From assembly GCA_963662465.1 (NCBI GenBank), contig OY759599.1, forward strand, positions 896,001 through 960,000: a stretch of DNA of 64,000 bases, read 5' to 3'. A model generated the notes under the pieces. The model was given only the letters and a program-made list of their open reading frames with translations. It made no database searches and was not told where the DNA came from. The first letter of the stretch is position 1, and every line of letters starts with the position of its first letter. Shown here piece after piece: positions 30,234 to 46,610 of this stretch. This DNA is from Desulfatiglandales bacterium. GTDB lineage: Bacteria > Desulfobacterota > DSM-4660 > Desulfatiglandales > Desulfatiglandaceae. The translations under genes were made by a program, and so were the position numbers.

Positions 30234-30249
30234 TGGCATCCTTTGTGCA
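30234..30249 (+). promoter_or_regulatory. Sigma54 (-24/-12) promoter for the ADH/ALDH/mft genes
   Basis: TGGCATCCTTTGTGCA: GG at 30235-36 and GC at 30247-48. Confidence 0.75.
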
Positions 30250-30381: not shown

Positions 30382-31599
30382 ATGGCAATTAGTATCGAAA
30401 GAAAACAATTTCCGTTGCTTTATGTGCATCAGCATTCCCGAGGTATTTTCGGTTTCGGGGCCCACCAAATGGCGGGGCAGGAATGCCAGATGTACGGTAT
30501 CAAGCATGCTCTGCTCGTCACTACCGGCCTAAGAGGAACGGGGATCGTTGACGAGGTGGAAGGCGTCCTTAAGGCTAACGGTATTGCCGTAACCCGTTTC
30601 GAAGGGTTCACATCCAATCCCAAGGATTTCGAATGTGTGGAAGGGACAAAGGTCTACCTTGAGGCAGAGTGTGACGGTATTGTATCGGTGGGTGGCGGCA
30701 GTGCCCATGATGGCGCTAAGGGTATCCGGATTATGGTAACGAATGATGGGCCTGATACAAGCCTCAAGGATTTTTGCGCTGTTCTGGACCCTCACTATAC
30801 GACCCGCATCCCTACTTACAAAGTCGTGAATATTCCACATGTGGCAATTAATACGACCACCGGCACGGGGGCGGAGGGCACGGCTTTTGCCATCATTAAT
30901 GACTCGGACTGGGTGTACAAACTCATCCTGGTGGTCCCGGGCGTGGCGCCGTCGGTGGGTATAAATGATCCCGCATTCATGAGACTCCAACCGCCGCAGT
31001 TAGTTGCCTGGACCGGAATAGATGCCTTTTGTCATGCCATGGAGCCTGGTATCGGCCGTTTTAATATGCCCGTGGTCCATGCTACCGCTATGAGGGCAAT
31101 CAAGCTGTTGAGTGAGAATATCCGACAGGCCTATGCCAATCCCGCCAATGACGTGGCGATTGAGAACATGGCCTGGGCACAGTTCATTGCCTCCATGTCT
31201 TATAATCTGGGAGGGGGCATGGGGATGGTTCACGGTACGGCCCATATGCTGTCGGTGATCAAGGACCTTCATCATGGTTACACCAACGCTATTATGATGT
31301 TGCCGGTGGAGCGTTTTAATGCGATGGCCTGCCCTGAGAAATTTAAGGAGATCGGAGAGGCCATGGGACTGGATATCCACCATATGAATCCAGTCCATGC
31401 GACTGACGTGACACTTGATGAAATTGAGAGACTCAGAAATGATGTGGGTATTCCCCAAGTCCCGCTCAAGGAGTTCGATTTCAGTGAGGCGGACATTGAG
31501 CATACTGCCAAATGGGCTATTAATGACCTGTCAAGGGAAGCCAATCCTCGCGACATTACACCGGAACAGATCAAGGAAATTATGCGTTCCTGTATTTGA
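30382..31599 (+). CDS. Iron-containing alcohol dehydrogenase resembling Mdo/MNO nicotinoproteins
   Basis: GGGSAHD, TTTGTGAE and DAFCHAME family motifs; TTGLRGTGI and SNPKD match actinobacterial Mdo/MNO as I recall them. Confidence 0.85.
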   Translation: MAISIERKQFPLLYVHQHSRGIFGFGAHQMAGQECQMYGIKHALLVTTGLRGTGIVDEVEGVLKANGIAVTRFEGFTSNPKDFECVEGTKVYLEAECDGIVSVGGGSAHDGAKGIRIMVTNDGPDTSLKDFCAVLDPHYTTRIPTYKVVNIPHVAINTTTGTGAEGTAFAIINDSDWVYKLILVVPGVAPSVGINDPAFMRLQPPQLVAWTGIDAFCHAMEPGIGRFNMPVVHATAMRAIKLLSENIRQAYANPANDVAIENMAWAQFIASMSYNLGGGMGMVHGTAHMLSVIKDLHHGYTNAIMMLPVERFNAMACPEKFKEIGEAMGLDIHHMNPVHATDVTLDEIERLRNDVGIPQVPLKEFDFSEADIEHTAKWAINDLSREANPRDITPEQIKEIMRSCI

Positions 31600-31630
31600 T
31601 TGACTGATCATTTTGAGTTTGACCTTAATG

Positions 31631-31659
31631 CCATCTATCCTGGGAGGATGGATGGTTTC
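31631..31659 (+). terminator. Hairpin after the ADH gene (terminator or stabilising stem)
   Basis: CCATCTATCC-TGGGA-GGATGGATGG followed by TTTC. Confidence 0.5.
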
Positions 31660-31689
31660 AAATTAAACGTTAGGGACAGGAGGAATTAG

Positions 31690-33165
31690 ATGGATTACAA
31701 AGTGCTCATCGGTGGTGAATGGATGTCCGCTGAAAGTGGAGAGACGATTACGATTATTAATCCGGCTAACGGGGAGGTGGTTGGGACCGTTCCCAAATGC
31801 GGCGATGCTGAAGTGGAAAAGGCCGTTGCCGCAGCCCAAAAGGCCTTTCCCGGTTGGGCGGGCAAAACCATGACCGAAAGGTCCAAAGTGCTCCTGAAAA
31901 TGTCCCAACTTATCATGGCGCACCAGGAAGAACTCGCCACTCTGGAAACCCGGGAGCATGGCTCCCCAATCCGTAAAACCATGAATTTCGATGTGCCCCT
32001 TTGTGCCGAACAATTGGAATTTTTCGCCGGGGCCGCACGGGGCTTAACCGGTGAGACCCTTCCCGTGGGTCCCTGGTGCATTTCCATGACCGTCCGGGAA
32101 CCCCTAGGGGTTGTGGGACTTATCACTCCGTGGAATTTTCCGGCCCTCATGGTGATTTGGAAAATGGGGGCAGCCCTTGTTACGGGCAATACCTGCGTCA
32201 TCAAACCGCCTTCCATAGCGCCGTTGACGGCTTTGAAGCTGGGGGAAATCGCCATGGAGGCAGGTGTGCCCGCCGGGGTAGTGAATGTGATCACCGGTCC
32301 GGGAGAAACAGTCGGTGAGGCATTGGTCCGGCACCCGGAAGTGGCGAAGATCGGTTTTACCGGGGATACCGCCACGGGTAAACGGATCATGAAAGTGGCC
32401 AGCGATACTGTAAAGCAGGTGGGTCTGGAGTTGGGTGGCAAGAACCCCTTTCTGATCATGCCCGACGCGGACGTGGATGCCGCGGTGGAAGCAGCGGTTT
32501 TCGGGGCCTTTTTTAATTCGGGACAGGTTTGTGCATCTCCCAGCCGATTTTATATCCATGAGTCCCTGTACGACGCCTTTGCGGAAAAATTCGTGGCCGG
32601 CGCCAAACTCCTGAAATACGGAGATCCCACAGATATGGCAACGGTCATCGGCCCGGTGGCCTATGGGGAGCACCGGGATAAGATCGAAGCCTATGTTCAG
32701 GGAGCAAAGGCGGCCGGCGCCAAGGTTCTACTGGGTGGAGAGAGACCGGATACGCCGGATACCAAAGACGGCTTTTTTGTGCTTCCCACCATCCTGGGCG
32801 AATGTACCAATGACATGGTAATCATGCGGGAGGAGGTCTTTGGTCCCGTGGTGGGACTCTCCCGTTTCAGTTCGCCGGAAGAAGCGCTGGCCCTGGCCAA
32901 CGACACGCATTACGGCCTTTGTGCATCCGTCTGGACCAAGGATGTTCGTGCCGGCCTGGCCATGGCCGGCCAGATAAAGGCAGGGACCGTGTGGATCAAT
33001 GAGCATCTCATGATTTTCTGCGAGACGCCCTGGGGGGGATGCAAACAATCGGGATGGGGAAAGGATCTTTCCACCATGGCGCTCGATGAGTATACCACCA
33101 CCAAGCATATCTATGTGGATCTCATCGGACAGCCTGAAAAGCCGTGGCATGCCCTCATGAAATAA
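31690..33165 (+). CDS. NAD(P)-dependent aldehyde dehydrogenase
   Basis: TPWNFP, FTG, LELGGKNP, GQVC and EEVFGPV motifs. Confidence 0.95.
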   Translation: MDYKVLIGGEWMSAESGETITIINPANGEVVGTVPKCGDAEVEKAVAAAQKAFPGWAGKTMTERSKVLLKMSQLIMAHQEELATLETREHGSPIRKTMNFDVPLCAEQLEFFAGAARGLTGETLPVGPWCISMTVREPLGVVGLITPWNFPALMVIWKMGAALVTGNTCVIKPPSIAPLTALKLGEIAMEAGVPAGVVNVITGPGETVGEALVRHPEVAKIGFTGDTATGKRIMKVASDTVKQVGLELGGKNPFLIMPDADVDAAVEAAVFGAFFNSGQVCASPSRFYIHESLYDAFAEKFVAGAKLLKYGDPTDMATVIGPVAYGEHRDKIEAYVQGAKAAGAKVLLGGERPDTPDTKDGFFVLPTILGECTNDMVIMREEVFGPVVGLSRFSSPEEALALANDTHYGLCASVWTKDVRAGLAMAGQIKAGTVWINEHLMIFCETPWGGCKQSGWGKDLSTMALDEYTTTKHIYVDLIGQPEKPWHALMK

Positions 33166-33172
33166 CGCCAAA

Positions 33173-33234
33173 CAACGGATTCCGGATGGCGAATGGGTTA
33201 ACGACCTGTTCGTTCATCCGGGGTTGTTCCGTTG
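33173..33234. other. Long imperfect hairpin between ALDH and mftA
   Basis: Nested pairing CAACGGA/TCCGTTG, CCGGATG/CATCCGG and GCGAATGGGT/ACCTGTTCGT. Confidence 0.6.
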
Positions 33235-33284
33235 CCCAAAATAACTTGGAAATTACATTTTATAGACCGGAGATTTAACGAACA

Positions 33285-33407
33285 ATGGAAAATCAAGAAA
33301 AGAATGTGAAGACAGACCACAAGGAAAACAGTCCGGAAGATATTTTTGCCACCCAGGAAATTGAGATCGAGGAAATGGCCATTGATGGGATCTGCGGCGT
33401 TTACTAG
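33285..33407 (+). CDS. mftA: Mycofactocin precursor peptide (40 aa; not in ORF track)
   Basis: MENQEKNVKTDHKENSPEDIFATQEIEIEEMAIDGICGVY*; C-terminal IDGxCGVY signature; GGAG RBS; directly before mftBC. Confidence 0.95.
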   Translation: MENQEKNVKTDHKENSPEDIFATQEIEIEEMAIDGICGVY

Positions 33408-33429
33408 CCGTTCTTTGGAAGGTTGAACC

Positions 33430-33711
33430 ATGATAGCAAGTGCGACAAACAGTAGAAGGTATATCCTGGAATCCGGTACACAAGTGCGCAATGAGGATTT
33501 CGGGCTGCTTTTCTATACCATGAAGGGACCGCGGCTCTATTTTCTGTCTTCCGGCCCATGGCTGGATGCGGCATTCTTCCATGGTGACCGGTCACTGGAT
33601 GAGTGGTTGCAAACGGAAAATCAGGCGGGTTTGATGTCTCAAGATCGTATGGAAAAAATACAGGGAAGCTTGGATCGGCTTAAAGACAAGGGAGTTATCA
33701 TTGAGTGCTAA
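33430..33711 (+). CDS. mftB: Mycofactocin chaperone (PqqD-like RRE)
   Basis: VRNEDFGLLFY...RLYFL; 93 aa; lies between mftA and the radical SAM gene. Confidence 0.9.
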   Translation: MIASATNSRRYILESGTQVRNEDFGLLFYTMKGPRLYFLSSGPWLDAAFFHGDRSLDEWLQTENQAGLMSQDRMEKIQGSLDRLKDKGVIIEC

Positions 33712-34720
33712 TATGGCCAGGATGGGGCTTCGGGCTCCCGTGAATGTGACCTGGGAAGTCACATTGAAATGCAATCTCCATTGCGTTCACTGCCTTTCGG
33801 ATGCGGGGATTCCCTCCAAAGACGAATTGACCGCTCCGGAATGTCGAGCCCTGGTGGATCAATTGACATCCCTCCGGGTGTTCCAGGTGAATATCGGTGG
33901 GGGAGAACCTTTTATCCGTCCTGATTTTCCGGATCTGCTCACCTATTGTCATGAAAAGGGGTTGGTCACCTGCGTCAGCACCAACGGCATGCTCATTGAC
34001 GACAACCTGGCCCGTCAGTTATCCCGTCTGAAAATGCTCTATCTACAAATAAGTCTCGATGGCGCCACGGCAGACGTGAATGATCCCATACGGGGTGAAG
34101 GAACCTACCCAAAGATCTTGAACGCTGCCGATTGCCTGGCGCGTCATGGGGTGAAGTTCAGCATCAACACGGTTTTGACCCGAACCAATTATCCACAACT
34201 GGATGATCTTCGGAAACTTGCCGGCGGTTACGGGGCTGAGCTGCGGGTTTCCCGATTTCGGCCGTCGGGCCGGGCCAAAGAGAGCCGGGAATCCCTGGGG
34301 CCGGAGAAATGGCAGTTGGAGGCTTTTGCCGAGTGGCTGGAAGGGCATGATCTGGTGCGGACCGGGGATTCCTTCTTTTGCCTCACTTCCGAGCATCGGC
34401 GCCGAAAGGGCCTGGATATGTGCGGCGCTGCCAAGATGACCTGCTGCATCTCTCCCACAGGGGATGTTTATCCCTGCGCTTTCTTGCAGGAACCGCCGTT
34501 TCGGGTGGGGAACGTTCGGGATGTGTCCTTTAAGACCATGTGGGATCAGGCCCCGGTTTTCAAAGAACTTCGCAACCTGAATGTTGAGACTTGCGTGACC
34601 TGCGAACGATTTGAGTTCTGCCGGGGGGGGTGTCCGGCCATGGCCTATCACACTTACCAGGACATCAACATGCCGGACCCGGAATGCCTTGTGAATATCA
34701 AACATTTCAATTTTGCTTGA
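33701..34720 (+). CDS. mftC: Mycofactocin radical SAM/SPASM maturase
   Basis: APVNVTWE..CNLHCVHCLS, VFQVNIGGGEP, RFRPSGR, GLDMCGAAKMTC, DVYPC, CRGGCPA and PDPEC. Confidence 0.95.
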   Translation: MSANMARMGLRAPVNVTWEVTLKCNLHCVHCLSDAGIPSKDELTAPECRALVDQLTSLRVFQVNIGGGEPFIRPDFPDLLTYCHEKGLVTCVSTNGMLIDDNLARQLSRLKMLYLQISLDGATADVNDPIRGEGTYPKILNAADCLARHGVKFSINTVLTRTNYPQLDDLRKLAGGYGAELRVSRFRPSGRAKESRESLGPEKWQLEAFAEWLEGHDLVRTGDSFFCLTSEHRRRKGLDMCGAAKMTCCISPTGDVYPCAFLQEPPFRVGNVRDVSFKTMWDQAPVFKELRNLNVETCVTCERFEFCRGGCPAMAYHTYQDINMPDPECLVNIKHFNFA

Positions 34721-34745
34721 TTATAGCTATGAAGATGGCTATTAT
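34717..34745 (+). promoter_or_regulatory. Putative TA promoter and operator
   Basis: TTGATT-N17-TATTAT overlapping near-palindrome ATAGCTAT-GAAG-ATGGCTAT. Confidence 0.5.
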
Positions 34746-34759
34746 GGGGAACGCTTTCG

Positions 34760-35059
34760 ATGCAGGAGATGCGCTTTATGCAAAAACAATACTCAATAGC
34801 CGAAGCTAAGAACAAGCTCCCTGCCATTATTCATCAAGTAGAGAAAGGGCCTTTCGTGGAGCTTACGAGGAGAGGAAAACCGGTTGTGGTTTTGTTGTCC
34901 ATCGACGAATTCAAGCGGCTCAGTCTTTCCAATTCGGGTTTCTGGAAAGCTCTGACAGCTTTTCGTGAAACGCTCAATTCAGAAGGGACGGTTGTTTCAG
35001 ATCAGGATTTCGAAGGGCTTCGAGATTCTTCCCCCGGACGGGAAGTGGATTTGAACTGA
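34760..35059 (+). CDS. Phd/YefM family antitoxin (start may be 34778)
   Basis: SIAEAKNKLPAII..VE.G..VELTRRGKPVVVL. Confidence 0.9.
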   Translation: MQEMRFMQKQYSIAEAKNKLPAIIHQVEKGPFVELTRRGKPVVVLLSIDEFKRLSLSNSGFWKALTAFRETLNSEGTVVSDQDFEGLRDSSPGREVDLN

Positions 35060-35481
35060 TGAAATTTCTTCTTGACACCAATGTGTTGTCGGAACCTTTA
35101 AAATCTGAACCTGACCCATCCGTCCTTTCCATGTTGAAAAAGCACCAGTATGAAATTGTGACGGGTGCGCCGGTCTGGCATGAACTTCAGTACGGTTGCC
35201 GTCGTCTTCCGCCATCACGAAAACGCAAGGAGATTGAATTTTTCCTCGATGAGGTTGTGAAAAAGAACCTGATCGTTCTTCCCTACGATGACCGGGCTGC
35301 CGAGTGGCATGCAAAAGAGAGGGCGAGATTGTCGCAGAAGGGAATGTCGCCCCCATTTGTGGATGGTCAAATTGCGGCCATTGCCAAAGTGAACGATCTG
35401 GTTTTGGTAACCCGCAATGTTAAAGACTTCCACCATTTTTCGGAATTGATAGTTGAAAACTGGCACGGAAAAGAAAGATGA
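35059..35481 (+). CDS. vapC: PIN-domain VapC toxin
   Basis: FLLDTNVLSE, DGQIAAIA and LVTRNVKDF motifs. Confidence 0.92.
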   Translation: MKFLLDTNVLSEPLKSEPDPSVLSMLKKHQYEIVTGAPVWHELQYGCRRLPPSRKRKEIEFFLDEVVKKNLIVLPYDDRAAEWHAKERARLSQKGMSPPFVDGQIAAIAKVNDLVLVTRNVKDFHHFSELIVENWHGKER

Positions 35482-35514
35482 TTTCATGCCGTGCGATTCG
35501 GAATGACAGGGAAA

Positions 35515-40435: not shown

Positions 40436-41195
40436 TGTCATAAGTTGGTATACGGTTTCACTCTTCTTCCTGCTGACGTCCGGTTTGTTTGCCTACGAAC
40501 CGGATGAATGTCTCAATTGCCACCGTGAAGGGAGCGGAAAAAGTGCGCTTCACATATCTCAGGCGCAATATGAGGGTTCGGTTCACCACAACGAGATCAC
40601 CTGCATGGATTGCCATGGAGAGGTCGTGGACGATGCCCATACGAAAAATAGAGGATCAGGGAATGTGGATTGCGGCGCGTGTCACGATCAGGTAAACCGG
40701 CACGGATTGGGGGGTACGGGCACGCGCCCCCAATGCCATTCCTGCCACACCCGACACGGCATACTGGGAAAGGACAATCCAGCATCCTCTGTGCATCCCG
40801 ACCATCTTTCCCGTACCTGCGGCCCATGCCATCCGGCCCAGACGGGCGATGCCGGTTTCCTGGCCTGGTTGCCGTCGGTCCGGATCAAAACCCACGGCAA
40901 ACAGGATTTTGCCTGTGATTTTGATGAAGCCGATTGCCTGGGGTGCCATCAGGGGCACGCCGCCCATGGTGAAGAAATGCCCCTGAACAAAAAGGATTGC
41001 CGGAAATGCCATTTCCCCGCAAATAATCGGGCGGGCGTTATGGGTAGTATCCACCCGAAACCCAAAGGCAAAAAAGATACCATTGACATCATCGCCGGGG
41101 CGGTTTACGGGGTAGCCGTCGCTTTTCTCCTGATTGGCGGTTGCTGTTTTTATACGCGCCGATTTTCAGGAAAAGCTGGAAAAGGGAGGGGATGA
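40425..41195 (+). CDS. Membrane-anchored multiheme cytochrome c (7 CxxCH)
   Basis: CLNCH, CMDCH, CGACH, CHSCH, CGPCH, CLGCH, CRKCH; N-terminal signal peptide and C-terminal TM helix. Confidence 0.92.
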   Translation: MRCNVISWYTVSLFFLLTSGLFAYEPDECLNCHREGSGKSALHISQAQYEGSVHHNEITCMDCHGEVVDDAHTKNRGSGNVDCGACHDQVNRHGLGGTGTRPQCHSCHTRHGILGKDNPASSVHPDHLSRTCGPCHPAQTGDAGFLAWLPSVRIKTHGKQDFACDFDEADCLGCHQGHAAHGEEMPLNKKDCRKCHFPANNRAGVMGSIHPKPKGKKDTIDIIAGAVYGVAVAFLLIGGCCFYTRRFSGKAGKGRG

Positions 41196-41196
41196 T

Positions 41197-43050
41197 TTGT
41201 TGTTAACCGCTTTTGATCTGCTCCTGATGGGTATTTCCCTGGTTATTTTTCTGACAGGCATGGCGAAGCTGAAGCGTTCATGGCGCATGGGGCGTACGGA
41301 AGATTGCGACCGGGATTTGAAAGGCCTCTTCGTTTACCTGCTGGGGCACCGAAAGATCCTTCAGAATCCTCCGAAAGGTATGGCCCATATGCTGGTATTC
41401 TGGGGGTTCCTCTTTTCCCTGTTGATGGGCATTCTGCCCCAGTTCGGGGTTTCGCTGCCGCCGTTTCCGGCAGGGCTGCTGTCTCTTTTGAGCGATCTTT
41501 CGGGACTGGCCCTCTTGCTGGGTCTTGTCTATTTTCTTATAAGGCGGCTCAAAAGCGATGCCCCGACCGGGAGAGTCCTATTGCCCGTGATGCTTCTTCT
41601 GGTGATGGTGTTGAGCGGCTTTCTCGCTGAAGGGGTACGCCTTTCCATCATGGAAACGCAGTGGCACTGGCGCACCCCAGTGGGCGGGTTGCTGGCCCTG
41701 GCCATATGCCCTTCCCCCCTGTTCATGCAGGTCATGATTCGGGTTCATTTCTTTACGTTGCTCATTTTTATTGCCATCCTTCCCTTTTCCTTCATGCGAC
41801 ACCTGATTTCAGGAAGCCTGAATGTGGTCTACCGGCAAAAACGGCCGCGGGGCGCAATGCGGGGGATGGACCTGGAGGACAGGGTCGGCGCTCAATCGGT
41901 CGGAGATTTCACCTGGAAGCAGCTTTTGGATGTGCAGGCCTGTATGTCCTGCGGGCGTTGCGACGAGGCCTGTCCCGCGGCCATATCCGGCAAGCCTCTT
42001 TCCCCCCGTCAGGTCATGGGGGGGATCTATGACCTTGTCTGCAAATCCTCTTCCGCCCCCCTTGAAAATACCGTTTCATCCGATGCCCTGTGGGCCTGTA
42101 CCACCTGTATGGCCTGCGTGGTCCGGTGTCCGGTGTATGCGAGCCCCATGGACAAACTCATGGACTTGAGACGCGCCGAGGTCATGGGGAAGGGCCTTTT
42201 ACCCGAAGCCGCCATGGGCATGATGCGGGATCTGGAAATTTACGGGGATGTGAATGGTAAAGGGTCGGCCCATCGGGAAGACTGGGCCATGCACCTGGGG
42301 GTTCCCCATATATCCGAAGAAGGGTTGGAAATCCTTTTATGGGTGGGATGCTCCGGCGCCTTTCATCCTCGATACCAGGAGACCTGTCGCGCCATGGTGC
42401 GGATTCTTCAGGCGGGCGGGGTGCGCTTCGGTATTCTGGGTCGGGAAGAATCCTGCTGCGGGGATGGGGCCAGGCGGCTGGGAAATGAGACCCTGTTCCA
42501 GACCCTTGCAAAAAAAAATATGGCAGTCTTTAAAAAATACCATATTCAAAAAATTGTCTGTCTCTGCCCCCACGGGTATAATACCCTCAAAAACGAATAT
42601 CCCGGCGATTTTGAAGTTTTTCATGCCGTTCCCTTTGTGCTGGACCTGATCAAACAACAACGAATTGCTCCGAAATATCCGGTGAATAAACGGATGGCCA
42701 TTCACGATCCCTGTTATCTGGGTCGGGTCAACGGGATATACGATTCCTTGAGGGACGCCGCCGCGAGTGTTCCCGGCATTGAACTTCGGGAACTGACGCG
42801 AAACCGGGAAAACGCCCTCTGTTGCGGCGGTGGGGGCGGCCGTATGTGGCTCCATGAGAGCATGGGGCAAAACATCAACCGGCTTCGGGCCGAAGATGTG
42901 GCTGAAGCGGGGGTGAACCTGGTGGCAACCGCCTGTCCTTACTGTCTGACCATGCTGGAAGACGGTATTAACGCACTGGAGATGGAAAATCCTCCCCGGG
43001 TCATGGACCTGGTGGAGATTGTCGATGCCGCCCTGGGTCGGGTCTACTGA
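41197..43050 (+). CDS. Membrane Fe-S oxidoreductase (NarI-like TM, two 4Fe-4S, two CCG domains), ETF:quinone oxidoreductase-like
   Basis: ~5 TM helices with His; CMSCGRCDEACP and CTTCMACVVRCP; ESCCG, HDPCYLGR and CCGGGGG. Confidence 0.88.
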   Translation: MLLTAFDLLLMGISLVIFLTGMAKLKRSWRMGRTEDCDRDLKGLFVYLLGHRKILQNPPKGMAHMLVFWGFLFSLLMGILPQFGVSLPPFPAGLLSLLSDLSGLALLLGLVYFLIRRLKSDAPTGRVLLPVMLLLVMVLSGFLAEGVRLSIMETQWHWRTPVGGLLALAICPSPLFMQVMIRVHFFTLLIFIAILPFSFMRHLISGSLNVVYRQKRPRGAMRGMDLEDRVGAQSVGDFTWKQLLDVQACMSCGRCDEACPAAISGKPLSPRQVMGGIYDLVCKSSSAPLENTVSSDALWACTTCMACVVRCPVYASPMDKLMDLRRAEVMGKGLLPEAAMGMMRDLEIYGDVNGKGSAHREDWAMHLGVPHISEEGLEILLWVGCSGAFHPRYQETCRAMVRILQAGGVRFGILGREESCCGDGARRLGNETLFQTLAKKNMAVFKKYHIQKIVCLCPHGYNTLKNEYPGDFEVFHAVPFVLDLIKQQRIAPKYPVNKRMAIHDPCYLGRVNGIYDSLRDAAASVPGIELRELTRNRENALCCGGGGGRMWLHESMGQNINRLRAEDVAEAGVNLVATACPYCLTMLEDGINALEMENPPRVMDLVEIVDAALGRVY

Positions 43051-43067
43051 TGGGCAAAAGGGATATT

Positions 43068-43940
43068 ATGCGAATTATCGTTTGCGTCAAGCAGATCGCT
43101 CATACCTACGCCAGAACCGGAAAAGAGACTGACCGGAACTATCTGTCCTCTGACGATGTGGTGTTCCGGATTAACCCTTATGATGAACTGGCCGTAGGCG
43201 CCGCGTTGCATGCCAGAGACCTGGCGGGCGGCGGCCACATCAGCCTGCTGACCCTGGGACCCATCATTGCGGAGGCGGAACTGAGAAGATGTATGGCCCT
43301 GGGGGCGGATGAGTTGTACCAGATCCATATGGACGCGAAATTAGATCCGTGGCAAAAGTCCGTTTTTCTGGCCCAAGCCATTGAGAAAATCGGCGCCGAT
43401 CTGGTACTCTGCGGCAAGGAAAGCCTGGATACCCGAAACGGGCAGGTGGGCGCTTTGCTGGGGTGCCACCTGAACCGGCCTTTTATTGCCGGCATACGGG
43501 ATTTTCATGGGGTATCGAAGAAAGACGGTTTCCTGGTTGAGCGGAGTGCGGGCCGGGGAAAACGGGAAAGGGTCAAATGTATGTTGCCGGCCGTGTGCAG
43601 CGTGGATGCGGGCGGTATTCTGTTGCCGGTTCCCACCTGTGATGCAATGGAAAAAAGTCAAACCCTCCCGGTTCAAAAACTGATATTCGGTGAAAATGCG
43701 GTTCGTCCCAAGGTCGTCCGCATGAGCCTCTATCCGCCCCGTCCCCGCCCGAAGGCTCCGTCTCCCCCGGATAGCCGGCTTCAATCTTATGATCGGACAA
43801 GACAGCTTTTGACCGGCAGCCGCGTTGAAAAAAAGGGCGAGATGCTGACGGGAAGTTTTGGCGCCCAGGTGGAGGGGCTCATCTCTTTCCTTCAATCCAA
43901 CGATTTCCTGGAATCCCCAGAGAAAAAATCCGGGGGTTGA
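43068..43940 (+). CDS. etfB: Electron transfer flavoprotein beta subunit
   Basis: MRIIVCVKQ, INPYDE, ALGAD and DLVLCGKES.D..GQVG motifs. Confidence 0.92.
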   Translation: MRIIVCVKQIAHTYARTGKETDRNYLSSDDVVFRINPYDELAVGAALHARDLAGGGHISLLTLGPIIAEAELRRCMALGADELYQIHMDAKLDPWQKSVFLAQAIEKIGADLVLCGKESLDTRNGQVGALLGCHLNRPFIAGIRDFHGVSKKDGFLVERSAGRGKRERVKCMLPAVCSVDAGGILLPVPTCDAMEKSQTLPVQKLIFGENAVRPKVVRMSLYPPRPRPKAPSPPDSRLQSYDRTRQLLTGSRVEKKGEMLTGSFGAQVEGLISFLQSNDFLESPEKKSGG

Positions 43941-43947
43941 TCGTTTG

Positions 43948-45435
43948 ATGCAAGGGCAATGGCAACCCCCCCTCGGCTACCGTCTGGCCAAAGGCGTTAC
44001 CCGGCATGAAAAAAATGACGGAATTTTTCTGCTCCTGGGTTTCCCCCTCAAAAGCCTCTCCCTTCATCCCGCGTGGAAGGGTATTATCCGCTGCCTGTCC
44101 GGACGCGATTACGTGGCCTTTCAGCAACTACTCCCCCTGATTGAAAACGTGGATGCCGATCGGGTGGAATCTATGCTGAACGATCTGGTGCTAAAAGGTT
44201 TCCTGGAGCAGCAGGGTATTCCGGCCCTTTCCGAATTGCCGATGGTATCCATTATCATCCCGGTCAGGAATCGGCCCGAAGAGATCAGCGCATGCCTCAA
44301 ATCCCTGGAAGATCTGGATTACCCGGCAAACCGACTTGAAACCATCGTGGTGGACGACGCTTCAACGGACCACACACCGGAAATTGTATCCGGATTTCCG
44401 GTTCGTCTCATTCGTCTTGAAAATAATCAGCAGGCCCCCTTTTGTCGTAACCTGGCTGCCGGGGAAGCCAAAGGTGAGATCCTGGCCTTCGTGGACTCCG
44501 ATTGCCTGGTGGATCCGCTTTGGTTAAAAGAGCTTCTGCCCACGTTCAAGGCTGCGTCCGTGGGCGCCGTGGGCGGCAGAGTTGCGTCATATTTCAACAC
44601 ATCGGGGCTGGATTGTTACGAAGCGGCGAACTCTTCTCTGATCATGGGGCGGCATGCCATGCGGTCCCAGGAAAGAGATACCGCCTTTTACGTGCCTTCC
44701 TGCAACCTGCTGGTGAGGCGAAGTTTATTTCTGGGAATGGATGGGTTCCGGGAAGAACTGGTGGTGGGGGAGGATGTGGATCTTTGCTGGCGAATACAGG
44801 ACCATGGTCTTCATGTGGCGTTTCAACCCGTGGGAAAGGTTTTCCACAAACACCGGAACCGCCTGATCCCGTTTTGCGGGAGACGGTTTGATTACGGCAC
44901 CTCTGAGCCGCTGCTTCAGAAACTGCACAAAAAGAGAAGCAAGAAAATGGTCTTTCCCGTGGGGGGATCTTTTTTTCTGGCTTTGGGAATCCTTGCCATG
45001 ATGACGGCCTCTCCCATGTTGCTGATTCCATGTGGTGCCATATCCATTGGGGATGCTTTGAACCGGTGGTGCATTGTTAGAAAAAAGGGTGTGCCGGTGG
45101 GCGTCATGTCCATTCTGCTTGCGGTTTTAAGGGAGTATTTTTCTTTTGCCTATCATTTATGCGCTTTTGCATCCCGGTATTATCTGATTTGGGCTATTTT
45201 GCTTTTACCCCTTTTCCAGACGGCTTCAATGGTCATTATGACCATGCACCTGGTTGTGGGAATCGTGGGCTATGTCATCAAAAAGCCTCAGCTGAATCCT
45301 TTTTCTTTTCTATTTTACTTCACCCTTGACCAGCTTTCCTACCAGTCTGGCGTCTGGTGGGGATGTTTCAGGCATCGCGCTTTCGGGTCGGTGAATCCAA
45401 AACTGGTTTGGTCGGCATTTTCCGGGAAAAGTTGA
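43948..45435 (+). CDS. mftF: Mycofactocin glycosyltransferase (GT2)
   Basis: L.GFPL N-terminus, IIPVRNR, VDDAS, FVDSDC, SSLIMG, YVPSCNLLVRR, VGEDVDLCWR, RFDYGTSE; GVWWGC C-terminus. Confidence 0.9.
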   Translation: MQGQWQPPLGYRLAKGVTRHEKNDGIFLLLGFPLKSLSLHPAWKGIIRCLSGRDYVAFQQLLPLIENVDADRVESMLNDLVLKGFLEQQGIPALSELPMVSIIIPVRNRPEEISACLKSLEDLDYPANRLETIVVDDASTDHTPEIVSGFPVRLIRLENNQQAPFCRNLAAGEAKGEILAFVDSDCLVDPLWLKELLPTFKAASVGAVGGRVASYFNTSGLDCYEAANSSLIMGRHAMRSQERDTAFYVPSCNLLVRRSLFLGMDGFREELVVGEDVDLCWRIQDHGLHVAFQPVGKVFHKHRNRLIPFCGRRFDYGTSEPLLQKLHKKRSKKMVFPVGGSFFLALGILAMMTASPMLLIPCGAISIGDALNRWCIVRKKGVPVGVMSILLAVLREYFSFAYHLCAFASRYYLIWAILLLPLFQTASMVIMTMHLVVGIVGYVIKKPQLNPFSFLFYFTLDQLSYQSGVWWGCFRHRAFGSVNPKLVWSAFSGKS

Positions 45436-45461
45436 ATCAAAATGGATGATAGGAGAAACCG

Positions 45462-46610
45462 ATGAGTGATTCTCTCTTGAAACTAGCAGGGCATCTGGCA
45501 TTGAACGGCCTTCGTTTCCAATATCTTAAACGAACCGGACATCCCGGAAAACCGCAGGCTTTAAGCCTTGAGGTGACGCATCATTGCATTGCAAAGTGTA
45601 TGATGTGCAACATCTGGAAAATTCCCAATTATGTGAAGGATCTGCCGTTGGCTCACTGGGTCAATCTCCTGTCATCAAATCTATTTTCGGATTTGAGAGA
45701 ATTGGATATTACCGGCGGCGAGCCGTTTCTGCGAAAAGACCTTCCCGATCTTTTGGGTGAAATTTGTCGTTTGAAGAATGAAAATCTTCGTAAACTCAGA
45801 AGCATCGCGGTGACCACCAACGGCCTGCTGACCGAACGCGTACCGGATGCCGTCGAAACCATTCTCAAAGACCTGAAAGTGGCTGGTTTGGATCTGGTGG
45901 TGGTATGCGCCATGGACGGCATCGGGGACATCCATGACCGCATCAGGAATTTCAAGGATGCATGGAAAAAGGTCAATGAAACAATTCAGAGGCTGAAAGA
46001 ACTGCGCAAGTCATATCCCAACCTGATTATCGGTCTAAAAACAACCATTTTGCCCATCAATGTGGACGCATTGGCGGACATCTCCCGTTATGCAAATGAA
46101 AACGGGCTGTTTACCATCATCTCCCCCTGTATTATTACCCGGGAGCGCTACTTGAACCCGGATCGGGCTGTCGATCTGGTGTTTACCGAGGAAATGAAAC
46201 AGAAGGCGGCGGACTTTTTCAGAACCGATCTTTCCCGCTGGAGCTATCATGCGGAGGCCCTGGTTCGATATTTTGAAACAGGCGTTATGGAAAAACCTTG
46301 TACCTGCGGATTTAACTATTTCTTTGTGCGAAGTACGGGGCGGGTGTTACTATGTCCCCTCATCGACAGCAGTCCCGGCAACATTCAAGATCAATCCGTG
46401 GACGATATTTTCCGGTCGGAAGAGGCGTTCCGCATACGCCGGAGAATCGGCTGTTATCCCGAATGCCGCCAATGTACGGAACCCGGGCTTGAGCGCTATG
46501 CTCTGCCATATGAAGGGTTCAAATATCTTTCCATGCTTTTGAAAGAGGGAAAAGATTCATTCTTGAGTTTACACCAGCATATGGGGCTTGGGAAATATTT
46601 TGGGTCATGA
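45462..46610 (+). CDS. Radical SAM protein with twitch/SPASM-like C-terminus
   Basis: CIAKCMMCNIW, TGGEPF, PCTCG...G.V.LC, CRQCTE. Confidence 0.88.
   Translation: MSDSLLKLAGHLALNGLRFQYLKRTGHPGKPQALSLEVTHHCIAKCMMCNIWKIPNYVKDLPLAHWVNLLSSNLFSDLRELDITGGEPFLRKDLPDLLGEICRLKNENLRKLRSIAVTTNGLLTERVPDAVETILKDLKVAGLDLVVVCAMDGIGDIHDRIRNFKDAWKKVNETIQRLKELRKSYPNLIIGLKTTILPINVDALADISRYANENGLFTIISPCIITRERYLNPDRAVDLVFTEEMKQKAADFFRTDLSRWSYHAEALVRYFETGVMEKPCTCGFNYFFVRSTGRVLLCPLIDSSPGNIQDQSVDDIFRSEEAFRIRRRIGCYPECRQCTEPGLERYALPYEGFKYLSMLLKEGKDSFLSLHQHMGLGKYFGS

What the first reader, a model, noticed from the sequence alone, without database searches (positions are those of the whole stretch)
30382..46610. Anaerobe-type mycofactocin operon with an embedded ETF, membrane Fe-S oxidoreductase and heptaheme cytochrome
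Seen: adh-aldh-mftA-mftB-mftC-(TA)-OYE1-OYE2-etfA-cytochrome c-membrane FeS-etfB-mftF-rSAM, all co-oriented, and from OYE1 onward overlapping or within ~30 bp. Known: mycofactocin is a peptide-derived redox cofactor that reoxidises nicotinoprotein dehydrogenases, studied almost entirely in aerobic Actinobacteria; mft-linked OYE genes have been noted before. Inference: the locus encodes both the cofactor and its electron exit route: alcohol -> ADH-bound NAD(P)H -> mycofactocin -> OYE1/2 -> EtfAB -> membrane FeS/heme b -> menaquinone or periplasmic cytochrome. I know of no characterisation of such a chain, but cannot check the literature.
Basis: partly seen in the sequence, partly recalled or inferred. 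Interest (0 to 1): 0.92.

Follow-up and report, generated by a model that had tools for sequence, protein, structure and literature searches.

The report
MftD-less mycofactocin operon with ETF chain
An anaerobe's operon for the redox cofactor mycofactocin lacks three enzymes known from mycobacteria and carries instead its own flavoprotein, membrane iron-sulfur and cytochrome chain, which probably finishes the cofactor and passes its electrons to respiration.

Summary
In detail: adh, aldh, mftA, mftB, mftC, phd/vapC, two FadH/OYE Fe-S flavoproteins, etfA, a 7-haem cytochrome c, a membrane Fe-S protein, etfB, mftF and a radical SAM gene lie co-oriented at 30382-46610. From vapC to mftF, spacing runs from an 11-base overlap to a 9-base gap. 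The membrane protein is a full-length homologue of mycobacterial EtfD (PDB 9OJN, E 2e-83), the ETF:menaquinone link. Of 44 informative related mftC loci, 42 carry OYE2 and 39 an ETF pair split by a membrane or quinone module. That module is EtfD-like plus cytochrome (29), EtfD-like alone (5) or FixCX (6); three loci fuse cytochrome and EtfD-like protein.

New here: the genome has no mftD, mftE or mftG. In two phylum samples (702 genomes, 55 mftC+), 32 have mftD and 20 have OYE2, never both. The MftC tree needs at least 7 switches. So the module replaces MftD, not merely MftG. Best reading (0.55): it oxidises the cofactor core, in maturation and probably in turnover, and sends electrons via ETF to menaquinone or cytochromes. 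Nothing is shown biochemically.

NCBIfam already names mycofactocin-linked OYE and ETF families. My searches found no paper on this, and this scan met the layout before on other DNA. Verdict: new variant of a known kind.

The parts
26631..28553 (+). dCache/HAMP sensor histidine kinase, likely regulator of the operon
   Evidence: Pfam dCache_1, HAMP, HisKA, HATPase_c. An HK plus sigma-54 regulator pair also lies upstream in L012 and L058.
28495..29913 (+). sigma-54-dependent response regulator (AtoC/NtrC type)
   Evidence: Pfam Response_reg, Sigma54_activat, HTH_8. A sigma-54 regulator lies in 11 of 59 related loci.
30234..30249 (+). sigma-54 promoter-like site TGGCAT-N5-GTGCA, 133 nt upstream of adh (weak)
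   Evidence: 2 mismatches. Matches in the whole window are not above chance (29 found, 34.7 expected), so only its position speaks for it.
30382..31599 (+). iron-type alcohol dehydrogenase, candidate mycofactocin-coupled nicotinoprotein
   Evidence: Pfam Fe-ADH and ADH_Fe_C. It carries TSNPKDFECV, close to the TSNPKDYEVH hot spot that Haft 2011 linked to mycofactocin (passage). No NCBIfam cut-off is met.
31690..33165 (+). aldehyde dehydrogenase
   Evidence: Pfam Aldedh 576 bits. No equivalog cut-off is met.
33285..33407 (+). mftA precursor peptide, core ...EEMAIDGICGVY
   Evidence: NF040489 34.6 bits (cut-off 30) and TIGR03969 28.5 bits (cut-off 25). A peptide ending G[VI]Y lies upstream of mftC in 49 of 53 loci with at least 600 nt upstream; 48 of them end ..DG[IV]CGVY.
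33430..33711 (+). mftB chaperone (RRE)
   Evidence: TIGR03967 43.6 bits, cut-off 33.
33701..34720 (+). mftC radical SAM/SPASM maturase (likely start ATG 33713)
   Evidence: TIGR03962 365.4 bits, cut-off 265. It is the only copy over the cut-off in the genome.
34760..35481 (+). phd/vapC toxin-antitoxin pair inserted in the operon (passenger)
   Evidence: Pfam PhdYeFM_antitox and PIN. At this place it occurs only in the window and in L012, 1 of 59 related loci.
35491..37458 (+). OYE1: FadH/OYE-type FMN/Fe-S/FAD flavoprotein paralogue with Asp in the cluster motif
   Evidence: TIGR03997 754.8 bits, below the cut-off of 793. Motif C-x2-D-x3-C-x11-C here and in 35 of 40 orthologues. Present in 37 of 44 informative loci.
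37455..39413 (+). OYE2: mycofactocin-system FadH/OYE family oxidoreductase 2
   Evidence: TIGR03997 866.9 bits, cut-off 793. Full C-x2-C-x3-C-x11-C motif and a single GxGxxG. Best solved relatives: NCR 6QKG 2e-92, FadH 1PS9 1e-81, TMADH 2e-57. Present in 42 of 44 informative loci.
39410..40435 (+). etfA (ETF large subunit)
   Evidence: Pfam ETF and ETF_alpha. NF038209 mft_etfA 141 bits, below the cut-off of 240. Nearest solved: bifurcating ETF 5OL2_A 1e-52.
40425..41195 (+). periplasmic heptahaem cytochrome c with C-terminal membrane anchor (ORF from 40374)
   Evidence: 7 CXXCH here and in 21 of the 23 extracted orthologue ORFs; the other two are an extraction artefact (L042) and the fusion L062 with 8. 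Pfam Cytochrome_C7. Fused to the next protein in L058, L062 and L069.
41197..43050 (+). EtfD-like membrane protein: membrane domain with haem-b ligands, two [4Fe-4S] motifs, two CCG domains (ORF from 41134)
   Evidence: PDB 9OJN_A (M. smegmatis EtfD) 2.2e-83 over residues 22-631. His85/His223, equal to EtfD His78/His241, and all cluster Cys are conserved in the 23 of 27 cytochrome-type rows that were properly extracted; 4 were extraction artefacts. Pfam CCG x2 and Fer4.
43050..43940 (+). etfB (ETF small subunit), separated from etfA by the two membrane genes
   Evidence: Pfam ETF. TIGR04503 mft_etfB 77 bits, below the cut-off of 200. Nearest solved: 4KPU_B 5e-20.
43948..45435 (+). mftF glycosyltransferase (ORF from 43858)
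   Evidence: TIGR03965 365.5 bits, cut-off 280.
45462..46610 (+). radical SAM/SPASM-twitch protein of no named family; loosely attached
   Evidence: Pfam Radical_SAM and SPASM. No NCBIfam cut-off is met. It follows mftF in 2 of 59 related loci and lies beside AOR genes in the Desulfocapsaceae loci.

Best explanation
This is a distinct type of mycofactocin system. It keeps the precursor, chaperone, radical SAM maturase and glycosyltransferase (MftA, B, C, F). It has no MftD (premycofactocin synthase), no MftE (peptidase) and no MftG (the mycobacterial link to respiration).

In their place it carries one or two FadH/OYE-type FMN/Fe-S flavoproteins, a dedicated ETF, and a membrane module set between etfA and etfB. 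Here that module is an EtfD-type haem-b/Fe-S protein with a heptahaem cytochrome c.

Proposed working:
1. The OYE flavin takes a hydride from the C3 position of the mycofactocin core. It would act on the amine precursor to create the keto form (the MftD job). Most likely it also acts on the reduced hydroxy form after each turnover with the nicotinoprotein alcohol and aldehyde dehydrogenases (the MftG job).
2. Electrons go FMN > [4Fe-4S] > ETF FAD > EtfD-like clusters > haem b > menaquinone, and possibly on to the periplasmic cytochrome.

Shown here: gene content, conservation, the either/or relation with MftD, homology to EtfD with conserved ligands, and the cytochrome/EtfD-like fusion.

Inferred: every electron-transfer step, the substrate of the OYE proteins and the direction of flow.
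For: 1.

2. The genome (complete, one contig) lacks three known enzymes:
- mftD: best match 22 bits, cut-off 471.
- mftG: no match.
- mftE: only a creatininase-like stretch of 151 bits (cut-off 172), inside a 744-aa ORF about 460 kb away.

3. Conservation in 44 informative mftC loci: 42 have OYE2, 41 etfA, 39 etfB, and 40 a membrane or quinone partner. The partner is EtfD-like plus cytochrome in 29, EtfD-like alone in 5 and FixC/FixX in 6. Two apparent exceptions carry the module nearby or in another form:
- L015/L079 has HmcABC plus an EtfD-like gene.
- L060/L080 has the module inverted beside IS66 copies.

4. Four different membrane modules occupy the same slot between etfA and etfB. This argues that the slot's job is 'ETF to membrane'.

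5. The Fe-S protein is a full-length homologue of EtfD, with haem, menaquinone-site and cluster residues conserved.

6. Either/or relation with MftD:
- In the phylum-of-G010 sample, 46 of 401 genomes have mftC. Of these, 32 have mftD with OYE2 in 0 of 32, and 14 lack mftD with OYE2 in 12 of 14.
- All 12 OYE2+ genomes are mftC+.
- In the own-phylum sample, 9 of 301 genomes have mftC (G000 included). Of the 8 others, 0 have mftD and 7 have OYE2 over the cut-off.
- On the MftC tree the D/O label changes at least 9 times, and at least 7 changes are forced by well-supported branches.

7. mft_etfA over its cut-off is found in exactly the 9 classical-clade OYE2+ genomes.

8. These OYE-type loci carry mycofactocin-coupled SDR genes over their cut-offs or ADH/ALDH/AOR genes (35 of 59 loci). 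A redox-active cofactor is therefore still needed.

9. Energetics: PMFT/PMFTH2 is -255 mV (eLife passage) and menaquinone -74 mV (abstract listing), so the flow is downhill.

10. Precedent: TMADH, of the same flavoprotein family, is solved in complex with its ETF (1O94/1O95).
Against: - There is no biochemical or genetic evidence for any step.
- OYE2 is nearer in sequence to C=C reductases (NCR 314 bits, FadH 279) than to amine dehydrogenases (TMADH 198, histamine dehydrogenase 195). NCBIfam ranks BaiCD and bilirubin reductase next.
- A dedicated ETF plus a membrane complex is heavy equipment for a low-flux biosynthetic step. Conversely, 22 of 32 mftD+ genomes manage without TIGR03970-type MftG or OYE2, so a dedicated recycler is not obviously obligatory.
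- EtfA and EtfB score below the NCBIfam mycofactocin-ETF cut-offs.
- With no MftE it is unclear how a free core is released.
- The EtfD homologue's haem b lies, by homology, at the cytoplasmic face. No complete second haem site was found, so the path to the periplasmic cytochrome is unexplained.
- Exceptions: L029 (mftABC only; no OYE2 over the cut-off in that genome) and L070 (OYE genes but no ETF within 10 kb).
- Many genomes are MAGs. Kin are not independent. Two of the mftD-/OYE2- genomes have mftC on contigs of 2.6 and 5.3 kb.
Confidence: 0.55

Rival explanations
1. Biosynthesis only. OYE2 (with OYE1) is an oxygen-independent premycofactocin synthase. It oxidises the amine AHDP to the keto form, and ETF plus EtfD/FixCX merely dispose of those two electrons into the quinone pool. 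Recycling of the reduced cofactor is done by something else.
For: - Strict either/or relation with MftD in 55 mftC+ genomes, with at least 7 forced switches on the tree.
- In the classical actinobacterial clade, the OYE-type genomes keep MftE (9 of 9) and differ from the standard set essentially by MftD being exchanged for OYE2+ETF+FixCX.
- The family includes amine dehydrogenases that use ETF, such as TMADH.
Against: - Two flavoproteins, an ETF, a membrane haem/Fe-S protein and a 7-haem cytochrome (in one locus a whole HmcABC set) are disproportionate for making a cofactor.
- They are translationally coupled with catabolic ADH/ALDH genes under a sigma-54 regulator.
- It leaves the cofactor without any route back to the oxidised state in genomes without MftG.
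Confidence: 0.2
2. The module is purely the electron exit route (an MftG analogue): alcohol > ADH-bound NADH > mycofactocin > OYE > ETF > membrane. The keto centre is made by an unidentified enzyme, or this cofactor does not need one.
For: - No MftG in the genome or in any of the 12 OYE2+ genomes of the second sample.
- An open question in print is what replaces MftG.
- The EtfD homology gives a ready quinone link.
Against: - Absence of MftG does not predict the module: 22 of 32 mftD+ genomes lack both. Absence of MftD does predict it: 12 of 14.
- No other conserved candidate for the MftD step exists in the minimal clusters mftABC-OYE2-etfA-fixCX-etfB-mftF.
Confidence: 0.12
3. Reverse direction. 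The ETF, which is nearest to bifurcating types, together with EtfD/FixCX feeds electrons from quinol, cytochromes or a bifurcation into the OYE proteins. These then act as ene-reductases on a catabolic substrate or on the cofactor.
For: - OYE2's nearest solved relatives are reductases: NCR and FadH.
- EtfA is nearest to bifurcating ETFs: 5OL2, 7QH2, 6FAH, 4KPU, 7KOE.
- FixABCX-type modules are known bifurcators (abstract listings).
Against: - The either/or relation with the oxidase-type enzyme MftD is not explained.
- The neighbours are dehydrogenases that produce reducing equivalents, not substrates needing reduction.
- The EtfB motif at the second nucleotide site does not fit the bifurcating type as I recall it.
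Confidence: 0.08
4. Chance neighbourhood. The OYE/ETF/EtfD genes serve an unrelated pathway (for example aromatic or fatty-acid CoA ester metabolism) and only happen to lie beside mft genes.
For: The genome holds 10 other EtfD/HdrD-like paralogues. Related genomes hold many OYE paralogues.
Against: - The order is conserved in 39 of 44 loci across Thermodesulfobacteriota, Chloroflexota and Actinomycetota.
- OYE2 over its cut-off is found only in mftC+ genomes, 12 of 12 against a base rate of 46 of 401.
- The mft-linked EtfD-like protein is at most 35% identical to its paralogues.
Confidence: 0.03

Closest known systems
Canonical mycofactocin system mftR-mftABCDEF(+mftG) of Mycobacterium and Rhodococcus
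   Same: MftA with the IDGxCGVY core. MftB, MftC and MftF are all over their NCBIfam cut-offs. Linked alcohol and aldehyde dehydrogenases are present, and the Fe-ADH carries the signature region that Haft 2011 tied to mycofactocin.
   Different: No MftD, MftE, MftG or MftR. It has OYE1/OYE2, a split ETF, an EtfD-like protein and a 7-haem cytochrome instead. Regulation is by a sigma-54 two-component pair.
NCBIfam 'mycofactocin system FadH/OYE family oxidoreductase 2' (TIGR03997) with 'mycofactocin-associated ETF' alpha/beta (NF038209, TIGR04503): the actinobacterial OYE/ETF/FixCX cluster type
   Same: OYE2 is a member (867 bits, cut-off 793). The logic is the same: mftC, OYE, etfA, a membrane or quinone partner, etfB, mftF, with no mftD.
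   Different: The window's EtfA and EtfB are below those models' cut-offs (141 against 240; 77 against 200). FixC/FixX is replaced by an EtfD-like protein plus a cytochrome. MftE is also missing, whereas 9 of 9 actinobacterial OYE-type genomes keep it. The families are named in the database, but my searches found no paper on them.
Mycobacterial EtfD (Rv0338c family; M. smegmatis structure PDB 9OJN, EMBO J 2026, PMC13083937)
   Same: Homologous over residues 22-631 (E 2e-83). The two haem-b histidines, the two phenylalanines at the menaquinone site, two cubane [4Fe-4S] motifs and two CCG domains all align.
   Different: - The first CCG domain has the Hdr-type Cys-Cys where EtfD has Cys-Thr, and Gly where EtfD has Cys584. 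A noncubane [4Fe-4S] is therefore expected rather than the linear [3Fe-4S].
- It has no roughly 265-residue disordered tail.
- It is partnered or fused with a 7-haem cytochrome.
- It is linked to mft genes, not to beta-oxidation.
Trimethylamine dehydrogenase with its ETF (PDB 1O94/1O95) and histamine dehydrogenase
   Same: The same FMN/[4Fe-4S]/ADP-type three-domain family (TMADH E 2e-57). OYE2 has only one GxGxxG, so no obvious NAD(P)H site. A dedicated ETF is the partner. The chemistry (C-N oxidation next to a heteroatom) would fit the MftD step.
   Different: OYE2 is closer to NCR and FadH than to TMADH. The covalent-FMN cysteine and the aromatic bowl of TMADH were not tested. The role as an ETF partner is inferred only.
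Tmc and Hmc transmembrane redox complexes of sulfate reducers (periplasmic multihaem cytochrome + membrane cytochrome b + cytoplasmic HdrD-like CCG protein)
   Same: The same three kinds of module. Weak TmcB, HmcF and DsrK matches fall on the CCG part. In one related locus HmcABC replaces the 7-haem cytochrome next to the EtfD-like gene.
   Different: Far below those families' cut-offs (TmcB 69.5 bits against 735). The membrane and CCG parts are one polypeptide, and the cytoplasmic partner is an ETF.
EMO, the ETF:methylmenaquinone oxidoreductase (DUF224-type) of syntrophic fatty-acid oxidisers (recalled: Agne et al. 2021; only a search listing that holds the term was seen)
   Same: As I recall it: a membrane haem-b/Fe-S protein encoded next to etfAB that passes ETF electrons to a menaquinone.
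   Different: Not tested here, since no sequence was at hand. EMO serves acyl-CoA dehydrogenases and has no cytochrome c partner, as far as I recall.

Membership tests
Mycofactocin system (core) | MftA precursor ending in the Gly-Val-Tyr core | tested here: met
   ...IDGICGVY; NF040489 34.6 bits (cut-off 30), TIGR03969 28.5 bits (cut-off 25).
Mycofactocin system (core) | MftB and MftC over the curated cut-offs, adjacent to mftA | tested here: met
   TIGR03967 43.6 bits (cut-off 33); TIGR03962 365.4 bits (cut-off 265).
Mycofactocin system (core) | MftF glycosyltransferase | tested here: met
   TIGR03965 365.5 bits, cut-off 280.
Canonical (mycobacterial) mycofactocin pathway | MftD premycofactocin synthase (TIGR03966) | tested here: not met
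   Whole-genome search: best match 22.4 bits, cut-off 470.85. Also 0 of 5 + 0 of 5 + 0 of 8 relatives with this locus type.
Canonical (mycobacterial) mycofactocin pathway | MftE peptidase (TIGR03964) | tested here: not met
   Best match 151 bits (cut-off 172), inside a 744-aa ORF about 460 kb away. 0 of 5 relatives are over the cut-off and 3 of 5 have no match at all.
Canonical (mycobacterial) mycofactocin pathway | MftG GMC oxidoreductase (TIGR03970) | tested here: not met
   No match in the genome. TIGR04542 and NF038210 were not run on the own genome.
mycofact_OYE_2 (TIGR03997) | Score over the curated cut-off of 793.15 | tested here: met
   OYE2 scores 866.9 bits. OYE1 scores 754.8 bits and fails; it also fails TIGR03996 (355.7 bits, cut-off 627.9).
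mft_etfA / mft_etfB (NF038209, TIGR04503) | Score over the curated cut-offs of 240 and 200 | tested here: not met
   141 and 77.1 bits. The position in the operon is equivalent, but they are not members by score.
EtfD (mycobacterial ETF:menaquinone link, PDB 9OJN) | Membrane domain with the two haem-b histidines and the menaquinone-site phenylalanines | tested here: met
   By the HMMER alignment, His78/His241 and Phe85/Phe230 of EtfD align with His/His and Phe/Phe (residue list). The histidines are conserved in all 23 properly extracted orthologues, out of 27 rows. The count of five transmembrane helices is taken from homology, not predicted here.
EtfD (mycobacterial ETF:menaquinone link, PDB 9OJN) | Two cubane [4Fe-4S] motifs and two CCG domains | tested here: met
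   All eight cubane Cys and the D2 ligands align. Pfam CCG gives 2 stretches, plus Fer4.
EtfD (mycobacterial ETF:menaquinone link, PDB 9OJN) | Linear [3Fe-4S] signature (Thr539 in place of the Hdr cysteine; Cys584 as ligand) | tested here: not met
   The window protein has Cys-Cys at 538-539 and Gly at 584 by the alignment. This is the Hdr type.
EtfD (mycobacterial ETF:menaquinone link, PDB 9OJN) | Accepts electrons from ETF and reduces menaquinone | not testable with these tools
   Needs a membrane assay.
FixABCX / EtfABCX | FixC (ETF-QO-like flavoprotein) and FixX ferredoxin beside the ETF genes | tested here: not met
   None in the window. They are present at the same slot in 6 related loci (proteins 39-40, 95-96, 107-108, 122-123, 136-137).
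TmcABCD / HmcABCDEF | TmcB or HmcF over the curated cut-off | tested here: not met
   TmcB 69.5 bits (cut-off 735); HmcF 40.8 bits (cut-off 750).
Bifurcating ETF | Second FAD and NADH site in the small subunit | tested here: inconclusive
   EtfA is nearest to bifurcating ETFs. EtfB matches them only over residues 7-150 or 7-181. The consensus 'ESLDxxNGQVGA' fits neither motif as I recall them.

The most novel reading that the evidence does not exclude
The OYE-ETF type is the ancestral, oxygen-independent form of the mycofactocin system, and MftD (with MftG) is a later replacement in aerobic actinobacteria. In anaerobes the cofactor is made and recycled by one enzyme line (OYE2 to ETF). That line feeds a dedicated respiratory complex, a cytochrome c/EtfD-like unit that is a single fused protein in some lineages. 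This makes alcohol and aldehyde oxidation independent of the NAD pool. It may also conserve energy, through a menaquinone loop between a cytoplasmic-side reduction site and a periplasmic cytochrome, or through ETF-based bifurcation.
Probability: 0.3. Interest if true: 0.85.

Novelty: new variant of a known kind. Interest (0 to 1): 0.72.

Why it matters
Mycofactocin biochemistry rests almost wholly on aerobic mycobacteria. There MftD creates the redox centre and MftG returns electrons to respiration. The MftG paper leaves open what happens in the quarter of mftC genomes without MftG.

This locus type gives a concrete, testable answer for strict anaerobes and for some actinobacteria: a flavoprotein-ETF-membrane chain that is never found together with MftD.

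If confirmed, it would:
- add an oxygen-independent route to a peptide-derived cofactor;
- give ETF a new donor class;
- give the newly solved EtfD fold a second physiological role;
- explain how sulfate reducers and their kin can oxidise alcohols at a potential above NAD.

A cultured, non-pathogenic carrier (Desulfosarcina variabilis, L043) makes it tractable.

Tried and rejected
- **Complex prediction of OYE2 with EtfB** (alignments A1 and A2). The tool did not fold it.
- **Expression.**
  - One RNA-library run held a small share of the stretch.
  - Its 24 short contigs (5 at 99%+, 12 at 95-99%, 7 at 90-95% likeness) touch 17 of 30 bins.
  - One contig bridges the EtfD-like/etfB junction, but with 12 differences.
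  - This may be a relative or DNA carry-over and is not evidence of co-transcription.
- **Sigma-54 promoter scan.** 29 matches against 34.7 expected; only the site at 30234 is well placed.
- **Terminator and sigma-70 scans inside the operon.** Not above the shuffles (30 against 22.2 ± 4.9; 19 against 13.2 ± 3.6), so no operon boundary could be set.
- **A second haem-b site in the EtfD-like protein.**
  - A third invariant His205 lies 18 residues from His223. It is conserved in the 23 properly extracted cytochrome-linked forms (of 27 rows) and in 0 of 5 cytochrome-less forms.
  - No fourth conserved His was found, so the question stays open.
- **Bifurcating or not.** Undecided.
- **MftG models TIGR04542 and NF038210 on 46 genomes.**
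  - Nothing was found at E <= 1e-100, and nothing rang in the controls.
  - For NF038210 the 300-bit cut-off may lie above that E-value, so absence is not shown.
- **The creatininase-like match at C1:436532-437260 as a remote mftE.** Rejected: it is below the cut-off, part of a 744-aa ORF, and has no counterpart in 3 of 5 relatives.
- **MftD's electron acceptor in the literature.** The mBio 2021 passages held nothing on it.
- **Gaps in coverage.**
  - Firmicutes (Pelotomaculum, Desulfotomaculum, named by Haft 2011) and archaea were not covered. None appeared among the 62 loci apart from three non-mftC radical SAM rows (L071-L073).
  - Supplements of the eLife paper (the table of genomes without MftG) were not opened.

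Full report
**What is in the window.**
- The + strand between 30382 and 46610 holds fifteen co-oriented genes (ORFs, translations). The order is iron-type ADH, ALDH, mftA, mftB, mftC, phd, vapC, OYE1, OYE2, etfA, a cytochrome c, a membrane Fe-S protein, etfB, mftF and a radical SAM/SPASM gene.
- Pfam and NCBIfam put mftB, mftC, mftF and OYE2 over their curated cut-offs.
- mftA ends in the canonical IDGICGVY. It scores best on the 'variant-type' precursor model (34.6 bits, cut-off 30).
- OYE1 falls just short of the OYE2 model (755 bits against 793).
- EtfA and EtfB hit the 'mycofactocin-associated ETF' models only below cut-off (141 against 240; 77 against 200).
- The cytochrome has seven CXXCH motifs, a signal-like N-terminus and a C-terminal membrane helix followed by a basic tail.
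- With the likeliest starts, the spacing from vapC to mftF runs from -11 to +9 bases.
- A dCache histidine kinase and a sigma-54 response regulator lie directly upstream. A sigma-54-like site at 30234 is well placed, but such matches are not above chance in the window.

**The membrane protein.**
- It is not just 'HdrD-like'. It matches one solved chain, 9OJN_A, at E 2.2e-83 over residues 22-631.
- 9OJN is EtfD of Mycobacterium smegmatis. In the EMBO J 2026 paper (PMC13083937) I read the abstract and sections 8 and 9. EtfD has five transmembrane helices and one haem b (His78, His241). A menaquinone site lies next to the haem (Phe85, Phe230). It also has two cubane [4Fe-4S] clusters, a noncubane [4Fe-4S] and a linear [3Fe-4S], which together wire ETF to menaquinone.
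- I read those residues off the printed alignment. The two histidines, the two phenylalanines, Arg306, all eight cubane cysteines and the ligands of the noncubane cluster align with identical residues.
- There are two informative differences. The window protein has Cys-Cys where EtfD has Cys538-Thr539. It has Gly where EtfD has Cys584.
- That is the heterodisulfide-reductase pattern described in section 9. I therefore expect a second noncubane [4Fe-4S], not the linear cluster.
- I aligned 27 cytochrome-linked orthologue rows and 5 cytochrome-less ones. Four of the 27 were extraction artefacts. The haem histidines and all cluster cysteines are invariant in the 23 valid rows.
- The genome has ten other EtfD/HdrD-like paralogues, none more than 38% identical. 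This one is therefore dedicated.

**Conservation.**
- A scan of one genome per species with MftC gave 62 loci. Of these, 59 carry a true mftC at 49-96% identity. They come mostly from Thermodesulfobacteriota, some from Chloroflexota, and one from an Actinomycetota-labelled MAG. The cultured isolate Desulfosarcina variabilis is among them (L043).
- I mapped the window's proteins on them by tblastn. 44 loci reach at least 8.5 kb beyond mftC.
- Counts among those 44:

| Feature | Loci (of 44) |
|---|---|
| OYE2 | 42 |
| OYE1 | 37 |
| etfA | 41 |
| etfB | 39 |
| membrane or quinone partner between etfA and etfB | 40 |
| whole ETF module (etfA + etfB + partner) | 39 |

- The partner takes several forms:
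  - the EtfD-like protein plus the 7-haem cytochrome in 29 loci;
  - a reduced EtfD-like protein without a cytochrome in 5 Desulfocapsaceae-type loci;
  - FixC plus FixX in 6 loci;
  - in one Desulfobacula MAG, HmcA-HmcB-HmcC followed by an EtfD-like gene.
- In L058, L062 and L069 the cytochrome and the EtfD-like protein are one polypeptide of 858-923 residues.
- Of the five loci without a full module:
  - L016 runs off its contig inside the Fe-S gene;
  - L015 is the Hmc form;
  - L060 has the module about 9 kb away, inverted, beside IS66 copies;
  - L029 (mftABC only; no OYE2 over the cut-off in that genome) and L070 remain true exceptions.
- 35 of the 59 loci also carry ADH, ALDH or tungsten-type AOR genes. 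Several of the 15 loci annotated have NDMA-type zinc ADHs and Liv-type ABC transporters.

**What is missing.**
- The genome is complete (one contig, 8.16 Mb).
- It has no MftD: the best match is 22 bits against a cut-off of 471.
- It has no MftG.
- It has no MftE. A creatininase-like stretch of 151 bits (cut-off 172) sits inside a 744-aa ORF about 460 kb away. It has no counterpart in three of five relatives.
- MftD is also absent from five further Thermodesulfobacteriota genomes with this locus and from five genomes with the FixCX form.
- None of the 146 unassigned ORFs from 15 loci hit MftD or MftE. Only the best five families per protein were shown.
[quoted passage not shown] Their functions were found later, and that makes the absence meaningful.

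**The either/or test.** I sampled two phyla.
- **Sample 1: the phylum of the Actinomycetota-labelled MAG (401 genomes).**
  - 46 have mftC, 32 have mftD and 12 have OYE2 over the cut-off.
  - All mftD+ and all OYE2+ genomes are mftC+.
  - No genome has both mftD and OYE2.
  - Two have neither. In both, mftC lies on a contig of 2.6 or 5.3 kb.
  - mft_etfA over its cut-off is found in exactly the nine OYE2+ genomes of the classical MftC clade.
  - MftE is kept in those nine and lost in the three variant-type genomes.
  - TIGR03970-type MftG is found in 10 genomes, all of them mftD+.
  - So 22 mftD+ genomes have neither MftG of that type nor OYE2.
- **Sample 2: the window's own phylum (301 genomes).**
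  - 9 have mftC, G000 included, scattered over at least seven families.
  - Of the other eight, none has mftD.
  - Seven have OYE2 over the cut-off. The eighth scores 736 bits at a contig edge.
- **MftC tree of 111 rows** (quick IQ-TREE with LG+G4, rooted on two distant radical SAM rows).
  - The OYE-type rows are basal.
  - A well-supported classical clade of 43 rows mixes 32 mftD-type with 9 OYE-type rows.
  - The label needs at least 9 changes, and at least 7 are forced by branches with SH-aLRT of 95 or more.
  - The complementarity is thus not one old split but repeated displacement.
  - Regions around the OYE2 genes of that phylum show etfA-fixC-fixX-etfB, mftE and mycofactocin-coupled SDR genes, but no mftD.

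**Reading.**
- The module travels with mftC. It is never found with MftD. It still accompanies the dehydrogenase families that need a redox-active mycofactocin.
- In the minimal clusters (mftABC, OYE2, etfA, fixC, fixX, etfB, mftF), OYE2 is the only candidate for the oxidation that creates the keto group.
- OYE2 belongs to the FMN/[4Fe-4S] three-domain family. It has a complete cluster motif and only one dinucleotide motif, so an NAD(P)H site is not evident. In TMADH, a member of this family, ETF is the natural acceptor (1O94/1O95 listed; the mechanism is recalled).
- At the same time, the hardware looks like catabolic electron transport rather than disposal of two electrons per cofactor molecule. 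It includes two flavoproteins, an ETF, an EtfD-type wire, a 7-haem cytochrome and in one case HmcABC. It is coupled to ADH and ALDH genes behind a sigma-54 regulator.
- The amine of the precursor and the hydroxyl of the reduced cofactor sit on the same carbon. One enzyme could plausibly oxidise both. This is inference.
- I therefore favour a dual role (0.55).
- The potentials allow the forward direction: -255 mV for premycofactocin (eLife passage citing Ayikpoe and Latham) and -74 mV for menaquinone (abstract listing).

**Open points.**
- OYE2 is closer to C=C reductases than to amine dehydrogenases.
- Without MftE, the release of the core is unexplained.
- OYE1 carries Asp in place of the second cluster cysteine in 35 of 40 orthologues. 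Its role is unknown, and the FixCX-type loci lack OYE1.
- By homology, the haem b and the quinone site lie at the cytoplasmic face. A third invariant histidine lies 18 residues up the same helix. It occurs in the cytochrome-linked forms only (all 23 valid rows against 0 of 5) and hints at a second, outer haem. No fourth ligand was found.
- EtfA is nearest to bifurcating ETFs, but the small subunit does not settle the matter.
- The complex prediction was not run by the tool.
- The RNA data are too thin to show co-transcription.

**What is known.**
- NCBIfam names 'mycofactocin system FadH/OYE family oxidoreductase 1/2' and 'mycofactocin-associated electron transfer flavoprotein'. Curators have therefore seen the association.
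- In the held library no paper contains mycofactocin together with 'electron transfer flavoprotein' or 'ETF'.
- The ten listed papers for FixC/EtfA/EtfB terms hold no mention of mycofactocin. Only one paper pairs it with OYE terms, with a single mention.
- The MftG paper calls the MftG-less quarter an open question.
- Subscription papers and the supplements I did not open could hold more.
- This scan has met the same layout before on other DNA, in FixCX forms and in one form with a cytochrome and an HdrD-like protein, and read it the same way. Those are AI notes seen after my own counts. They are not independent evidence.
- Particular to this window:
  - the EtfD-type/cytochrome form and its fusions;
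  - the tie to the 2026 EtfD structure, with Hdr-type cluster ligands;
  - the Hmc variant;
  - the tree-based count of switches;
  - a toxin-antitoxin pair inserted in the operon.

**Verdict.** The locus is real and strongly conserved. It is a new variant of a known kind, and no step has been tested at the bench. Interest is 0.72.

Noticed in passing
window 34760-35481: A phd/vapC toxin-antitoxin pair sits inside the operon between mftC and OYE1. At that place it is shared only with the nearest relative L012, 1 of 59 related loci, so it is a recent passenger.
   Followed up: partly
window 35491-37458 (OYE1) against 37455-39413 (OYE2): The OYE1 paralogue has Asp for the second cysteine of the [4Fe-4S] motif (C-x2-D-x3-C-x11-C) in 35 of 40 orthologues. 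OYE2 keeps Cys in 34 of 44. The FixCX-type loci have OYE2 only.
   Followed up: partly
L015 16046-19926 and L079 9824-16918: In a Desulfobacula MAG, HmcA (16-haem), HmcB and HmcC, all over their cut-offs, lie between etfA and the EtfD-like gene in place of the 7-haem cytochrome.
   Followed up: partly
L058 15989-18568, L062 15807-18578, L069: The heptahaem cytochrome and the EtfD-like protein are fused into one ORF of 858-923 residues in Desulfarculales/Desulfomonilaceae-type loci.
   Followed up: yes
window 25188-26420: A further radical SAM/SPASM paralogue (mftC model 99.5 bits, AhbD model 108.7 bits, both far below cut-off) lies just upstream of the histidine kinase. Its homologues follow etfB directly in 7 Desulfatiglans-type loci. 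No precursor peptide was found for it.
   Followed up: partly
window 55831-63487: A set of acetophenone/acetone-carboxylase-like subunits (ApcC-, ApcB-, ApcE-, ApcC- and ApcD-like, all below equivalog cut-offs) follows a TetR regulator at 55161-55772.
   Followed up: no
window 51036-54980 (-): A 1314-residue ORF has no NCBIfam match at E <= 1e-5.
   Followed up: no
window 20826-24709: A truncated SAM-methyltransferase fragment, a 737-aa DUF1156 'anti-phage-associated'-like protein (99 bits, cut-off 1000) and an unassigned 347-aa ORF lie in a stretch of lower G+C (0.436 at 20001-22000). This may be a defence or mobile islet.
   Followed up: no
window 9081-17368: A second histidine kinase/sigma-54 regulator pair is followed by a Liv-type ABC transporter. 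In relatives (L014, L044, L058) such a transporter lies in the 10 kb upstream of mftA, separated from it by ADH or AOR genes.
   Followed up: no
L066 19404-20649, L067 17970-19253: LarA-like (nickel-pincer-dependent racemase family) genes lie next to mftF in Chloroflexota loci. Earlier notes of this scan describe variant-mycofactocin plus nickel-pincer operons.
   Followed up: no
G000:C1:970027-971757 (10 kb beyond the window's end): Another full-length EtfD-like paralogue (34% identity) lies close to the locus. There are two more full-length and seven HdrD-like copies elsewhere in the genome.
   Followed up: no
phylum-of-G010 sample, 46 mftC+ genomes: 22 of 32 mftD+ genomes have neither TIGR03970-type MftG nor OYE2. 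How they recycle the cofactor is unknown; MftD itself, with its alpha-hydroxy-acid dehydrogenase fold, might do it.
   Followed up: no
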